Below, in pieces: positions 3,642-14,856 of a stretch of DNA of 64,000 bases. The DNA is taken from NCBI RefSeq assembly GCF_006345805.1, contig NC_042998.1:81592001-81656000 (forward strand), in the 5' to 3' direction. The notes beneath the pieces were generated by a model. It did not search any database, had not been told where the DNA came from, and saw only the letters and a program-made list of their open reading frames with translations. The stretch comes from Octopus sinensis (taxonomy: Eukaryota). The stretch's first letter is position 1, and each line of letters opens with the position of its first letter. Position numbers and translations under genes: made by a program.

Positions 3642-4535
3642 TTCTTTACCTCCACCATCACCATCACCACCATGGTTACAATTGTAAAATAAAAAATTGT
3701 GACTAAATTGTTATGCCATTGATGATATAGATCACCATTTTTATTTCGGTGATGATAAGATTTCAGTGCACAAACATGAGTAATCATTACACATATGTTT
3801 AAGTAACATTGTTTAACTAACAGTGGTAGTTGTCAGTCAGCGGTATATTAACAATATTAACATCATTTACAATATAATACACCGCTTGAGTTATATTTAC
3901 TTAGAAATATATCATTAACTGTTTAAATAATACATGTGTAACGGGATTCAGGAACATATACATATTTACTAATGGAAGTGGTTATATTTCGTTAAATGCT
4001 ATTTGAAGAAATAGCGTTTGAAAGCATTGTCAGCTTTTATCCGGTATAAAGAACCTTTCACTTTATGCAAAAAGGGTTATATCTTCTATTTGCTTCAGTA
4101 ATTTAACTGTGGCCATGCTGGTGCATGCAGAATTTTAAGTAAATGAATCTACCCCAGTACTTAGTTTTTAGCCCGGTACTTATTCTAGCGGTCTATTTTG
4201 CCGAAGCGCTGTGTTGCGGGGAGGTTAACATATCAACACATGCTGGCAAGCGGTGGCGGGAGAGCAACACAGACATAAATACACACGCACACGTGTATGT
4301 ATATATATATATATATATACATTCATACATACATACATACATACATACATACATACATACATACATACATACAAATCAATCTATCTATCTATCTATCTAT
4401 ATATATACATATATATATATTTACATATATATACATACATATATATATATATCTAATGCAGGATAAAATTTTTTCGAAAAAAAATTCTATGAATCGCCAG
4501 CATATAAAAAAATACCTTTAAAGGTTAATTTATAA

Positions 4536-4755
4536 ACAACTTATTAATAAGGGCAAACGAAAAAATTTCTAATGCCAAATATGCCGAAAATTGGACATAT
4601 TGTCCATTTACCATATACTTTTTTTCCTCAGTACGTACGCTACTGTCGAGTAGCGTGCGTACTGGGCAAAAAATATGTGGTAAATGGACAATATGTCCAA
4701 TTTTCGGCATATTTGGCATTAGAAATTTTTTCGTTTGTCCTTATTCATAAGTTGT
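4536..4755. mobile_element. 220-bp palindromic MITE-like element
   Basis: ACAACTTATTAATAAGGGCAAACG... pairs with ...CGTTTGTCCTTATTCATAAGTTGT. Centre is CTACTGTCGAGTAG. No HHR core seen. Confidence 0.75.
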
Positions 4756-4757
4756 AC

Positions 4758-4806
<49 letters not shown>

Positions 4807-7698: not shown

Positions 7699-7912
7699 TA
7701 TTCTAAATGATTAATACGGAAGACAGTGTACTGGAAGCTTTATTTCGGACAAAAATCGTTTCGGCTAACTTCTGCACTGCTTCCTGGTGGGTGTATTCTA
7801 TTCCATCACATCGCTCTCCCCCGTCAAGGGAGCTGTGCAGAAGTAAACCGAAACGATCGTTGTGCGGTATAAAACTTCCAGTACACACTGTCTTCCGTAT
7901 TAATAATGTAGA

Positions 7913-8003: not shown

Positions 8004-8379
8004 TACACATACATACACACACACACACATACTCGCTCTCTCTCTCTCTCTCTCTCACACACACGCATACAGACACAGACACACATACATATTGGAGAAC
8101 AGAATTTTAATAATATAACATAAAGAAAATCGAGTGTGAAATACATGTCTAAGAAAGAGCTACCACTTTCCATTCAAAACTATATATATATATATATATA
8201 GATAAGAAAGTTTGTTTGGTAAAGCACGTGGGTGAATATATAAGAAAATAGTAAAGTGTGAAAAAACGACAGAAGGCTTAAATGTTAAAAAATATATATA
8301 TTTGTGTAAAAATGTCTGGAGAATATTGGAAAAATTTTTTTTCCTTTCCTTAAAATGACATAATTTTAAAAATTTTTAA

Positions 8380-8417
8380 AGAAATTACCGGTTTCGCGTG
8401 TAGCTTTTCAAATTTCT
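8380..8417 (-). ncRNA. Minimal type I hammerhead ribozyme, U3-A8 core variant
   Basis: Minus strand: AGAAAU-UUGAAAA-GC(UACAC)GC-GAAA-CCGG-UA-AUUUCU. 6-bp stem I, 2-bp stem II, palindromic stem III. Lies in the PLE 3' repeat. Confidence 0.75.
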
Positions 8418-8554
8418 TGTGACGTTATGTTTATATTGCATGGAATTATCGTTGTTTTTATTTCCAGGAGATTTCTAAATAAGGGGAGGTAGTGAGTGAT
8501 TTTTTCCGGTGTAGGGGAGATAATCGCTTAAAAATTTTTTTTCCTTTTTCCTTG

Positions 8555-9590
8555 TTAATTTCTCTGTGTCAGTATGTTCGGATGGTTGAGTCTGGGTTTG
8601 TACTTTTCAATGAAGAATGTTTCCTTGTTCAGTCTCATTTGTGTTGATGATCCGAAAGCACATTGGTAAAATGGGAAGATTAAAAATTGTGGCAGTAGTT
8701 GCTTTGCGCATTTCTCAATGTGCTCACTAAAAGGTATCATTCTATATTCTGGGAATGCAATCTGTTGTCGATGCAGTGTGCATCTGCGCCTGAGTGATAG
8801 TCCCGTGGAACCCACGTAGTCTTGGTGGCAGCCCGAGCATTTAATAACATAAATTATGTTTTCAGAGGCACAAGTAAAGTTAGATTTGATCTTAAATTTC
8901 TGTCCCTCTTTAAAGAAGAATTCTGATCCTCCCAATAGGTTAGGACATGTTGCACAGTTCGATCTACCACATTTTTTTACTTTTGCATCCGTAATTTTAG
9001 AAGACAATTTTGCCTTTGTGAGAATCTTTTTAAGTGATTTAGGCTGTTTGTAGCTTTTAATGATTTGGTGTATGTTTAGAATTTCCTTTAATTTTGGTTT
9101 TATGAAGTATTGGTAAATTCTGGGTGATGATGGTGAAGGCTTCTTTGTTTCTGGGGTTGTATGTAGATATGTAAGGTAGTATTTTCGGGGAAGGTGTGTT
9201 GTTGTGTTGAACTTTTCTTAAAGTTTCTATGTTGATTTCTGTTGCACGTCTGAACCCATCCTCTATGAGTTGAGCTGGGTAATGTCTGTCAATTAGGGTG
9301 TTTTTGAGTTCTTGCAGTCTAAAGTTCCTGGTATTTTGTTCTGACACTATTGTGCATATCCTTCTTGCAAGGTTGAAGGGGATGTTTGTTTTAGTGTGTC
9401 TTGGGTGGCATGAATTAAAAAGAAGGTATTGTTTGGCGTCTGTGGCTTTGTAAAAATGTCTGTTTCTATTTTAAGGTTAATTTTTTTAATTAGTATATCC
9501 AAGAACGGGAGCTCCTTTTGGTTGTATTCCATTGTGAACTGTATATTTGGGTTTATGCTGTTCAATAGGTTTTTAAATTTTAGGTTTTTA
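8555..9590 (-). pseudogene. PLE ORF C-terminus: RT end/thumb, Cys-rich linker and GIY-YIG endonuclease (frameshifted)
   Basis: LNSINPNIQFTME..ELPFLDILI..TDIF; SCHPRHTKTNIPFNLARRICTIVSE; CGRSNCATC; CASENIIYVIKCSGCHQDYVGSTGLSLRRRCTLH; E..FIEKYKPRLN. Confidence 0.9.
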
Positions 9591-9591
9591 A

Positions 9592-10011
9592 AAATGTGGT
9601 AGATCGAACTGTGCAACATGTCCTAACCTATTGGAAGGATCAGAATTCTTCTTTAAAGAGGGACAGAAATTTAAGATCAAATCTAACTTTACTTGTGCCT
9701 CTGAAAACATAATTTATGTTATTAAATGCTCGGGCTGCCACCAAGACTACGTGGGTTCCACGGGACTATCACTCAGGCGCAGATGCACACTGCATCGACA
9801 ACAGATTGCATTCCCAGAATATAGAATGATACCTTTTAGTGAGCACATTGAGAAATGCGCAAAGCAACTACTGCCACAATTTTTAATCTTCCCATTTTAC
9901 CAATGTGCTTTCGGATCATCAACACAAATGAGACTGAACAAGGAAACATTCTTCATTGAAAAGTACAAACCCAGACTCAACCATCCGAACATACTGACAC
10001 AGAGAAATTAA
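9592..10011 (+). pseudogene. Inverted duplicate of the PLE GIY-YIG endonuclease domain
   Basis: ORF 9631-10011 translates identically to the corresponding part of ORF 8555-9007 apart from its first residues. Confidence 0.9.
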
Positions 10012-10146
10012 CAAGGAAAAGGGAAAAAAAATTTTTAAGCGATTATCTCCCCTACACCGGAAAAAATCACTCACTACCTCCCCTTATTTAGAATCTCCTG
10101 AAAATAAAAACAACGATAATTCCATGCAATATAAACATAACGTCAC

Positions 10147-10184
10147 AAGAATTTGAAAAGCTACACGCGAAACCGGTAATTTCT
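10147..10184 (+). ncRNA. Minimal type I hammerhead ribozyme, U3-A8 core variant (mirror copy)
   Basis: AAGAAU-UUGAAAA-GCUACACGC-GAAA-CCGG-UA-AUUUCU. One A shorter in stem I than the 8380 copy. Confidence 0.7.
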
Positions 10185-10419
10185 TTAAAAATTTTTAAAA
10201 TTATGTCATTTTAAGGAAAGGAAAAAACATTTTTCCAATATTCTCCAGACATTTTTACACAAATATATATATTTTTTAACATTTAAGCCTTCTGTCGTTT
10301 TTTCACACTTTACTATTTTCTTATATATATATATATATATATATAACTTCTGTGAAGTTTCTGTAAACTAGTGAACAAAGTTGAATTAGACGATCGCACG
10401 ATTCCGTACAGCACAGGAG

Positions 10420-11290
10420 CTCTACATTTCAACCTTAAAGACCACAGAGCGGATTTCATAACCAAACCCTCTATAAGACTCATCTACCCTACCCAATCGG
10501 ACTTAGGACGAATAGTAAGAATATACTTGATAATACTATACCTATAGTTGGACAAATTAAACGTCAAATTATGGTCTCGCACAGGTGGAGTTATAACATG
10601 GTTTCACCTCCTTGAAAATTTGATGTACTATAATTTGATATCAACAATTATTACACATTTATATACCTCGTTTTCCTTGACAAAGTTCTCATTCTAGCTA
10701 AAATGCTAGCAAGCATGACTCCCTTAGAAACATACGTAATTCAAACTGCCAGAAAGACACTCATCTCCTTCGATGATAACCTTTGGTGCTGTGCATCTAT
10801 TATTAATAATAATAGTAACAATTTCTTCGATATAATCATCGACTCCTCTGACTCTGCTCATGTCACTTATCTGGTCGGACTATACCTCCTGCAGCGACTC
10901 GGCGTGTATTTCCCTAACATCGAATGGGGTTTGTATAGGGACAATGCATTGTTGGTTACTACGGGTCTATCTAGATCCGCATTAGAGAAGACTAGATGAT
11001 TTACATAAATTTTTTGCTAATTTTAATCCATCCTTCACTTTTGAAAACACTCCCAAAAAAGTTAATTTTCTAGATGTTACTTTAGATTTAAAATCTTCAC
11101 TATACTCCCCCTACCGTAATCAATACCTCAGATACATTAGCATAAAATCTAATCAGTGTAAATCTACCTTCGATAGAGTAATCAACGACATATCTATAGA
11201 GATATCGGGTCTCTCAGCCACGGAGGAAATCTTCATTAGCCATGCTACATACTATAACCAGGCGCTAGCTGCTAGCAGCTTTAAACAGTT
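10420..11290 (+). pseudogene. Degenerate PLE reverse transcriptase of a second lineage (GLYRDDGL type)
   Basis: KPSIRLIYPTQSDLGRI, ARKTL, FDII.DSSDSAHVTYLVGLYLL, GLYRDNAL and VNFLDVTLDL..YSPYR across frames, with many stops. Confidence 0.8.
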
Positions 11291-12761
11291 ATAGAGATAC
11301 ACAGTTACTTTAAAGTGTGTCGCTTCTTGTTTCTTTTTCCACCTTATTTCTTCCTTACTCTACTTTGATAAAGGGTTAGTCTACTTCTTTTATGGTGCGT
11401 TTATTTGTTGTGGCGTACAATTCACATTGGACAACTTTTTATGTTAACTTTATTTTGTATACATTGTTTCCAACACCTTTGAAAGATTTTGTAACATTGT
11501 GGTAATCTCTCATGTTGTCCAACTGTCCGTTTCTTATTCCCATGGTTCTATTTGTGCCGTTTTCTCTATACATATGCATACATACACACTCACATACACG
11601 TCCTCTCTCTCTCTTAAACACACACACACACAGACTCATACACACACACACACGCACGCGCACAAACACACACACGCACACACACACACGCACACACACA
11701 CACACACACACAAGCACAAACACACACACACACTTATATATACTAATTCTTCAAACTAGTATTTGAAAACAAACAGTAAAATTAGCTTTCTAATTTATTC
11801 ACAATAGTCTACAGTTTGATTTATCTCCACAAACATCTTTGAAATATAAAATGAAAAAATATAAGCTACAGAGAATACATAAATATATAATGCCTAATTG
11901 CGAAATATATTAGTTTACTGTCTGGCTTCGATAGTTTTACTCTCCCCTATTTTCTGTTAGAGCTTATTGCTAAACAATTATGCCATTAGAATAATGATGT
12001 CTAGCTTTTCCCTTTAATCCTCTATTTAACCAGTAATATATAAATTAATGCTTGCAAACTGGGTTCATAGTTCAGTAGTGGTAATACAAAGTAAGAAATA
12101 CTTGTCATAGTTTACATATTTGTAACATTTCTGAAAACAATGCAAGACAGAACAAACAAAAAAAAGTGCAAATCAACACGCTTTCTCGAAAGATTGTATA
12201 AAAAAATAAGTTAAATTTGGAGGAGACAGCGAATCAATTCATTTTTCTATTCATCACAATATGAATTACGTTATAATTGGTATTGTAAATGTGATTCATA
12301 GTTTCATTATGGTAGACAATATCTATTTTAATATGATTATAATATTACTATTATGTATATCTAGTCTACAAGATGGTTGTAGGTTTTGTGATAATAGCTG
12401 TTTGAATCAAATCATATTCAATATGATGAAGATCACACAAATTTTTTATAACAACGAGACAAAGAGGAAGAAAACTTCACAAACTACTGCTATGCGGGCA
12501 GAGGGAATTGGGGTTACACTTTTTAGTCTTTGATATTTATGTGACATTGCTGGCATCAAGCGAGTCACGGAAGCTTCGTGCTCCTGAATATTTTGTTATA
12601 AAATGGAATTTTATAATACAAAAATTACTTAAAAGTTGACTCGTATAACGATGGATGACAATGAGGGAAGTATGTTAAGCGTTACGGAATGCATATTACG
12701 GCCAGAGTTTTTATAAATGCTATGTCGCCATGATGCAGGAGGTAGTTGCACTGTGTAACTA

Positions 12762-14035: not shown

Positions 14036-14261
14036 TATTATTTCTTTACTGCCCACAAGGGGCTACACACAGTGGGGACAAACAAGGACAGACAAAACGG
14101 ATTAAGTCGATTATATCGACCCCAGTGCGTAACTGGTACTTATTTAATCGACCCCAAAAGGATGAAAGGCAAAATCGACCTCGGCGGAATTTGAACACAG
14201 AATGTGGCGGCAGACGAAATACCGCAAAGCATTTCGTCTGGTGTGCTAACGTTTCTGCCAG
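14036..14261 (-). mobile_element. SINE family A copy
   Basis: Reverse complement matches 14636-14856. Confidence 0.85.
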
Positions 14262-14431
14262 ATATATGATATGTGACATACATATGTATGTGTGTATATA
14301 TAGATACATACACACATACATACATACATACATACATACATACATACATACATACATACATACATACATTCATACATACATACATACATACATACATTCA
14401 TACATACATACATAATACATACATACATACA

Positions 14432-14462
<31 letters not shown>

Positions 14463-14623
14463 GTATATCAAAATAGTTTGATTCAAACTGACTGGCAATC
14501 TGAGATTCAAACGTATCGCTAGTTTTCGGCCGTTACAGCTACTGAATGCAATGTGTCTCTTCCTAATTTAAGACAATAGAATATGATTTGACGAAAATTT
14601 CATTGCTATACCTAGCAGGTTGA

Positions 14624-14856
14624 AAGGCGGCGAGCTGGCAGAAACGTTAGCGCACCGGGCGAAATGCTTAGCGGTATTTCGTCTGACGTTACGTTCTGAG
14701 TTCAAATTCCGCCGTGGTAGACTTTGCCTTTCATCCTTTCGGGGTCGATAAATAAAGTACCAGTTTCGCACTGGGGTCGATGTAATCGACTTGATCCGTT
14801 TGTCTGTCCTTGTTTGTCCCCTCTATGTTTAGCCCCTTGTGGATAGTAAAGAAATA
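14624..14856 (+). mobile_element. SINE family A, full length, with 17-bp target-site duplication
   Basis: GGCGGCGAGCTGGCAGAAACGTTAGC...GAGTTCAAATTCC (B-box-like)...GGGGTCGAT... TSD TATACCTAGCAGGTTGA at 14607-14623 and 14857-14873. Confidence 0.9.

What the first reader, a model, noticed from the sequence alone, without database searches (positions are those of the whole stretch)
8380..10184. Ultra-minimal hammerhead pair with a compensatory U3-A8 core (UUGAAAA)
Seen: both arms of the Neptune-like PLE have UUGAAAA instead of CUGANGA, a 2-bp stem II and GAAACCGGUA, about 38 nt in total. Known: positions 3 and 8 form a tertiary Watson-Crick pair, so C3U with G8A preserves it, and palindromic stem III HHRs cleave as dimers. 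Inference: a functional variant that standard CUGANGA searches would miss.
Basis: partly seen in the sequence, partly recalled or inferred. Interest (0 to 1): 0.7.

Follow-up and report, generated by a model that had tools for sequence, protein, structure and literature searches.

The report
Minimal U-A hammerhead in Penelope retrotransposons
Both arms of a broken jumping-gene copy carry a 40-letter motif of a self-cutting RNA type already described in such elements, with an unusually short second stem; about 850 sister copies share it, and a modest excess of copies starting at its predicted cut point suggests that it likely cuts in living cells.

Summary
The motif is real: a type I minimal hammerhead (UUGAAAA core, 2-bp helix II, palindromic ACCGGU helix III, 7-bp helix I) in the pLTR of a young Neptune-like Penelope element. 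It is the family state, not decay: 857 copies, none without A8, 4 without U3. Related U3-A8 motifs number 5,200 (control 2). It is not new: U3-A8 is published for Schistosoma Penelope elements (the same UUGAAAA heptamer), and U3-A8 and 2-bp helix II for natural hammerheads generally. Two corrections: the arms are inverted, so the two motifs lie on opposite strands and cannot be a cis dimer; and 144 copies of sister subfamilies carry U3·G8, so compensation is not strict. Added here: insertions begin at the predicted cut more often than at control positions (11 events in 2 windows, 16 in 7; p about 0.006, but 0.13 for this family alone). Three of them repeat one junction head-to-tail, as a circular or end-jumped template would. 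Cleavage itself is untested. The scan noted U3-A8 Penelope hammerheads before in three other genomes.

The parts
8194..9590 (-). Left arm: 5'-truncated Penelope-like element (RT thumb remnant, Cys linker, GIY-YIG endonuclease, pLTR, tail)
   Evidence: 98% to full-length copy L034; translation; frameshifted
9590..10328 (+). Right arm: inverted, shorter copy (linker, GIY-YIG endonuclease, pLTR)
8379..8418 (-). Minimal type I hammerhead, family-typical copy; core UUGAAAA 8411-8405, predicted cut between 8386 and 8385
   Evidence: sequence; folding
10147..10185 (+). Minimal type I hammerhead, one A missing from helix I; core 10153-10159, helix II 10160-10168, ACCGGU 10172-10177, predicted cut between 10178 and 10179
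   Evidence: sequence
9592..10011 (+). Open frame with C-x4-C-x2-C linker and GIY-YIG domain bearing the CCHH residues
   Evidence: Pfam PF01541 E 0.0026, below the curated cut-off; motifs read from translation
8555..9217 (-). Same linker and endonuclease frame on the left arm
   Evidence: PF01541 E 0.0066
9057..9470 (-). Reverse transcriptase C-terminal (thumb) remnant
   Evidence: 98% to L034 peptide that carries a weak RVT_1 match
8194..8235 (-). ~40-bp tail extension present on the left arm only
   Evidence: feature described for PLEs in PMC8557442
8181..8200 (.). (TA)n target, left flank
10322..10345 (.). (TA)n target, right flank

Best explanation
This is the pLTR hammerhead motif of a young Neptune-like Penelope retrotransposon family, with a U3-A8 core and a 2-bp helix II, and it likely self-cleaves slowly after GUA when two same-sense copies pair through their ACCGGU palindromes. 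Shown: the motif, its fixation in the family, its place 208 nt before the ORF start and again 3,981 nt later in a full-length copy. Predicted: a monomer cannot fold actively; two copies form a 6-bp shared helix III and swapped helices I. Inferred: partners are the 5' and 3' pLTR of a full-length or tandem transcript (or two RNAs), possibly helped by the element's protein; cleavage trims the element RNA out of read-through transcripts; some cut RNAs are reverse-transcribed to their new 5' end or circularised. The two motifs in this window are passive by-products of an inverted, truncated insertion: a transcript through both arms would form a long duplex that buries the motif and is likely A-to-I edited.
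For: Family fixation. The core, G10.1-C11.1 and GAAACCGGU recur in families with different helix I and II; 10.2-11.2 switches C-G to U-A in a sister group (65 of the first 100 of 412 listed, my count); position 17 is A, C or U in 42 of 43 motifs listed, G in one. C3-G8 relatives with 2-bp helix II sit behind the same endonuclease (L032, L033). Active dimer -14.1 kcal/mol, active monomer +3.1. Direct pLTR pair in L034. 5' ends of insertions at the cut: 4 events in this family, 7 in a U3-A8 sister family, against 7 in 4 and 9 in 3 control windows; stratified p 0.006. Three of 11 repeat the same junction in tandem or on both arms, 0 of 16 controls. U3-A8 active in vitro and 2-bp helix II common in nature per PMC3088659.
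Against: No cleavage assay. This family alone shows no significant excess (4 of 11 events, p 0.13), and the sister family against its nearest downstream control gives p 0.27. Under 1% of copies start at the cut, and most full-length copies extend upstream of it (only L104 and L105 of 30 loci start within 1 nt). U3·G8 subfamilies (144 copies) and a group with only one helix II pair (35 of 100 listed) amplified, so the motif tolerates degradation or cleavage is dispensable. The lowest-energy dimer pairs U3 with A17 (-15.5), a likely inactive register. Published metazoan minimal hammerheads cleave weakly (PMC4209133); in Anolis Poseidon cleavage needs protein, is not needed for insertion in vitro, and no RNA ends were seen at the site (PMC11167929).
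Confidence: 0.65

Rival explanations
1. A vestigial or structural hammerhead: the fold is kept as a protein-binding or dimerisation element (or by inertia) but no longer cuts at a useful rate; U3, A8 and the shrunken helix II reflect AT drift.
For: U3·G8 and 1-bp helix II lineages amplified; most copies read through the site; U3-A17 mispairing; cleavage dispensable in vitro for a Poseidon element.
Against: G5, A6, A9, G10.1-C11.1, GAAA and the palindrome persist across families whose flanks have diverged (these letters were part of the search pattern, but 5,200 against 2 control matches); non-U3 with A8 are 149 mostly scattered copies; junction excess at the exact site.
Confidence: 0.27
2. The 5' junctions at the site come from a transcription start or a reverse-transcriptase stall next to the palindrome, not from cleavage; the motif may cut or not.
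For: Foldback junctions cluster at near-palindromes in control windows; four events at +8..+10 in the sister family.
Against: 7 of 11 junctions abut position 0 in two families with different downstream sequence; a stall would be expected at the 3' edge of helix I (about +7), not at 0 (inference).
Confidence: 0.2
3. One reading: the two copies in this window form a functional dimer pair.
For: Two near-identical motifs 1.7 kb apart.
Against: Opposite strands; arm-arm duplex -396 kcal/mol over 250 nt; right copy has a helix I deletion.
Confidence: 0.03
4. Decayed canonical hammerhead or chance match.
For: AT-rich context; no Rfam match.
Against: 857 family copies with U3-A8, no C3-G8 among them; control counts 0-3.
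Confidence: 0.01

Closest known systems
Minimal hammerheads (min-HHR) of metazoan Penelope-like elements, including the U3-A8 variant of Schistosoma mansoni Cercyon (Cervera and de la Pena 2014, PMC4209133; read: main text parts 1-2 of 4 and the supplementary PDF text)
   Same: Type I, in pLTRs, palindromic helix III, G10.1-C11.1, predicted dimer; U3-A8 (about 1,300 hits); family Sm4 in Fig. S3 has the same UUGAAAA heptamer; Aedes entries have 4-nt palindromic inserts.
   Different: Helix II is 2 bp here, against 3-8 bp in Fig. S3 and a 3-bp minimum in their descriptor; no extra nucleotide between 9 and 10.1; U3-A8 is the majority state among CCGG-type motifs of this genome (5,200 against 302 with G8).
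Natural core and stem variants of hammerheads (Perreault et al. 2011, PMC3088659; passages only)
   Same: U3-A8 covariation in several natural examples, reported active in vitro; stem II commonly two base pairs, once one.
   Different: Their fast examples commonly have pseudoknots or loop contacts; none was evident here (not tested systematically).
Poseidon hammerhead of Anolis carolinensis (Frangieh et al. 2024, PMC11167929; passages and second half of main text)
   Same: pLTR hammerhead upstream of the tail where reverse transcription starts.
   Different: C3-G8 core overlapping the start codon; here the cut is 208 nt before the ATG. They found no RNA ends at the site; here genomic junctions hint at cleavage.
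Small dimer-cleaving hammerheads of Penelope-like elements (Lunse et al., RNA Biol 14:1499; not held, seen only as a citation in PMC6765202)
   Same: Short palindromic stem III, dimer cleavage (per the review passage).
   Different: Unknown: I could not check whether it already includes 2-bp helix II or U3-A8 forms.

Membership tests
Type I minimal hammerhead of PLEs | Core (C/U)UGAN(G/A)A, GAAA, UH with a 3-8 Watson-Crick pair | tested here: met
   U3-A8 in both arms and about 853 of 857 copies
Type I minimal hammerhead of PLEs | Open helix I flanking the core | tested here: met
   7 bp in left copy and family; other families have other pairing sequences; 3-4 bp plus bulge in some
Type I minimal hammerhead of PLEs | Helix II with G10.1-C11.1 | tested here: met
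   2 bp; C-G to U-A switch at 10.2-11.2 in sisters; one group keeps only one pair
Type I minimal hammerhead of PLEs | Helix II of 3 bp or more (published descriptor) | tested here: not met
   2 bp; descriptor Fig. S7. A search setting, not a catalytic requirement
Type I minimal hammerhead of PLEs | Palindromic helix III allowing a dimer | tested here: met
   ACCGGU; dimer -14.1 against monomer +3.1 kcal/mol
Type I minimal hammerhead of PLEs | Located in both pLTRs of a full element | tested here: met
   L034 positions 1650 and 5631 around the ORF
Type I minimal hammerhead of PLEs | Self-cleavage after UH | not testable with these tools
   Indirect only: junction excess, p 0.006 combined, 0.13 for this family
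EN+ Penelope-like element | RT followed by C-terminal GIY-YIG with CCHH | tested here: met
   (Pfam matches weak, below cut-off); CCHH definition from PMC8557442
EN+ Penelope-like element | Partial tandem or inverted arrangement, tail at one end | tested here: met
Neptune clade | CX2-5CxxC linker between RT and EN; (TA)n targets | tested here: met
   KKCGRSNCATC; (TA)n flanks; the linker is shared with Nematis
Neptune clade | RT phylogeny with Neptune rather than Nematis | not tested

The most novel reading that the evidence does not exclude
A radiation of natural 'minizymes' (helix II of 2 bp or even 1 bp, U3-A8 or U3·G8 core, about 40 nt) cleaves Penelope RNA in vivo, and the genome records it: insertions start at the cut, and some were copied round and round a template whose 5' end is the cut, direct fossil evidence for the cut-and-circularise model of Penelope retrotransposition.
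Probability: 0.4. Interest if true: 0.62.

Novelty: new member of a known kind. Interest (0 to 1): 0.38.

Why it matters
The core variant itself is known. What could matter: (1) PLE hammerhead function in vivo is described as unclear (PMC8557442) and RNA ends at the site were not found in Anolis; genomic 5' junctions and repeated head-to-tail units give a cheap, general test of cleavage and of circular templates. (2) At least 2,732 motifs with 7-9 nt between A9 and G12 escape published descriptors and Rfam, so hammerhead counts in such genomes are too low. (3) Closely related subfamilies with U3-A8, U3·G8, C3-G8 and 1-, 2- or 4-bp helix II form a natural series for measuring how small a dimer-dependent hammerhead can be.

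Tried and rejected
Rfam scan: only microsatellite-driven miRNA matches. No RNA holder listed as RNA on record; only contigs, which cannot show molecule ends, so no direct test of cleaved RNA. Look-up of earlier findings by sequence: nothing. Lunse et al. and Przybilski and Hammann 2007 are not held, so measured rates for U3-A8, U3·G8 and small PLE dimers were not seen; their supplements may bear on novelty of the 2-bp helix II. Paper searches 'U3A8' (0), 'U3-A8' (1), 'C3U G8A' (1, irrelevant), minizyme (0), template switch (6, none on PLE junctions by title or abstract), two base pairs/Tuschl (2 listings, not read). The flank tree (30 of 80 rows, 5 of 27 branches well supported) is too weak to order the C3-G8, U3-A8 and U3·G8 states; it only places U3·G8 rows among close relatives of this family. 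Rows dropped from junction counts as indels, substitutions or duplications: L122, L127 (test); L141, 18 of 20 loci, L162, L163, L173, 16 of 19, 26 of 30 (controls); 1 match and 4 were judged from four letters only. C3-A8 copies of the GAGG family are likely CpG decay of CUGACGA (inference), not a third core state. Structure prediction and protein searches were not run: they do not bear on the question.

Full report
Observation. The window carries the motif twice: + strand 10147-10185 and - strand 8418-8379. In hammerhead numbering it reads U3 U4 G5 A6 A7 A8 A9, helix II GC/GC closing UACAC, G12 A13 A14, A15.1 CCGG U16.1, A17, with helix I AAGAAAU/AUUUCUU. The right copy lacks one A of helix I. 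The arms are a ~740-bp inverted repeat. Rfam finds no hammerhead here.

The host element. Translation shows an RT thumb remnant with frameshifts, a C-x4-C-x2-C linker and a GIY-YIG domain with the CCHH residues. Both ends lie in (TA)n and the left arm has a ~40-bp tail. These match the description of Neptune/Nematis EN+ Penelope-like elements and their inverted 5'-truncated insertions (PMC8557442, passages). A full-length relative, L034, has the motif at 1650 and 5631 on the same strand around the ORF, the first cut 208 nt before the ATG, plus an inverted copy upstream.

Fixation. The family pattern with positions 3 and 8 free has 857 matches, control 0. None has a letter other than A at 8; 4 have a letter other than U at 3. 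Copies are about 98% identical, so this is a young family descended from a U3-A8 master; fixation inside it says little about selection. Across families it says more: 5,200 matches have U3-A8 with G..C-GAAACCGGU and varied helix II, control 2; 302 have G8; 149 have non-U3 with A8, mostly scattered. Short-helix forms total 2,732. One sister group changes 10.2-11.2 from C-G to U-A, another keeps only G-C (65 and 35 of the first 100 of 412). Three C3-G8 matches with a 2-bp helix II exist, two with the same endonuclease upstream. Against strict compensation, two U3·G8 subfamilies total 144 copies.

The pair is not a dimer. Folding the left copy gives +3.1 kcal/mol for the active monomer and -14.1 for the active dimer with a 6-bp ACCGGU helix; the lowest dimer (-15.5) pairs U3 with A17 (secondary structure only). 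A dimer needs two same-sense copies. The window's arms are opposite-sense, and 250 nt of arm-arm duplex score -396 kcal/mol. Contigs of runs guessed to be RNA show clustered A>G and T>C changes over the pLTR (A>G places 28, 11, 14, 35, 12 and 1 in six such runs, 3 and 3 in two large runs of unknown kind), which looks like hyper-editing of double-stranded transcripts of this family; no matched DNA was available and the reads cannot be assigned to this locus.

Footprint of cleavage. Among 30 loci holding the ORF start, two begin within 1 nt of it (L104, L105); most extend upstream, which a circular or tandem template would also give. I then searched the genome for post-cut sequence lacking the upstream GG. 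This family gave 10 matches: 4 independent junctions and 2 non-junctions. Four control windows gave 3, 2, 2 and 0. A U3-A8 sister family with a 4-bp helix II gave 7 junctions among 935 anchors; its controls gave 2 of 1,286, 3 of 1,825 and 4 of about 950, the last total assumed. Stratified test: p 0.13, 0.019, combined 0.006; against the nearest downstream control alone p 0.27. Events were classed by eye and windows chosen by me. Three events repeat one junction: units 0 to +1844 on both arms (L135), 0 to +392 four times (L137) and a sister-family case on both arms (L165); none of 16 control events does, though one (L184) is a single head-to-tail junction and one (L139-140) a duplicated foldback unit. 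The simplest reading is reverse transcription round a circle, or by end-jumping, on an RNA whose 5' end is the cut. This is suggestive, not proof.

Comparison with print. Cervera and de la Pena 2014 report U3-A8 minimal hammerheads in Schistosoma Cercyon elements, about 1,300 hits; their Fig. S3 lists UUGAAAA for family Sm4 and a U3·G8 case in Saccoglossus; their descriptor needs helix II of 3 bp or more; activity in vitro was low. Perreault et al. 2011 report natural U3-A8 and 2-bp stems II. Frangieh et al. 2024 found a protein-assisted PLE hammerhead, dispensable for insertion in vitro. I did not find the combination of U3-A8 and 2-bp helix II in a PLE in the papers seen (searches), but the most relevant survey (Lunse et al.) was not available.

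Verdict. A real, family-wide, probably weakly active member of a known class. The headline feature is published and the window's pair is not a functional dimer. The short helix II series and the junction footprint are the parts worth following. Interest 0.38.

Noticed in passing
window 10360-11340 (+): Decayed reverse transcriptase fragment of a different Penelope-like family directly behind the right arm; motifs resemble the Naiad type (recalled, not tested). Translation.
   Followed up: no
G000:C4:158033759-158034646, C2:188530505-188531246, C3:138197538-138198052: C3-G8 hammerheads with a 4-bp GAGG/CCUC helix II in direct repeats about 355-360 bp apart, like non-LTR retrozymes; relatives show C3-A8 and U3-A8.
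   Followed up: no
L135 (G000:C2:128,178,000-128,182,300) and L137 (C12162:32,600-34,700): Insertions built of head-to-tail units that start at the predicted cut and end inside the ORF (+1844, +392), same junction on both inverted arms.
   Followed up: partly
window 10040-10315, runs X1, X2, X3, X5, X8: Dense A>G and T>C changes, in single contigs including the core adenosines and position A8 (10158), consistent with hyper-editing.
   Followed up: partly
L054-L065, L035, L042: Several subfamilies have one nucleotide less after position 17, leaving an extra U between helix I and U3.
   Followed up: no
L144 (G000:C1:208,932,700): Counted as a control foldback, but its other arm starts at about +1 of the cut; not counted for the cut.
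   Followed up: no
window 7700-7900, 14095-14801, 4528-4763: Other inverted repeats (167 nt at 89%, 96 nt at 93%) and repeat fragments near the element.
   Followed up: no
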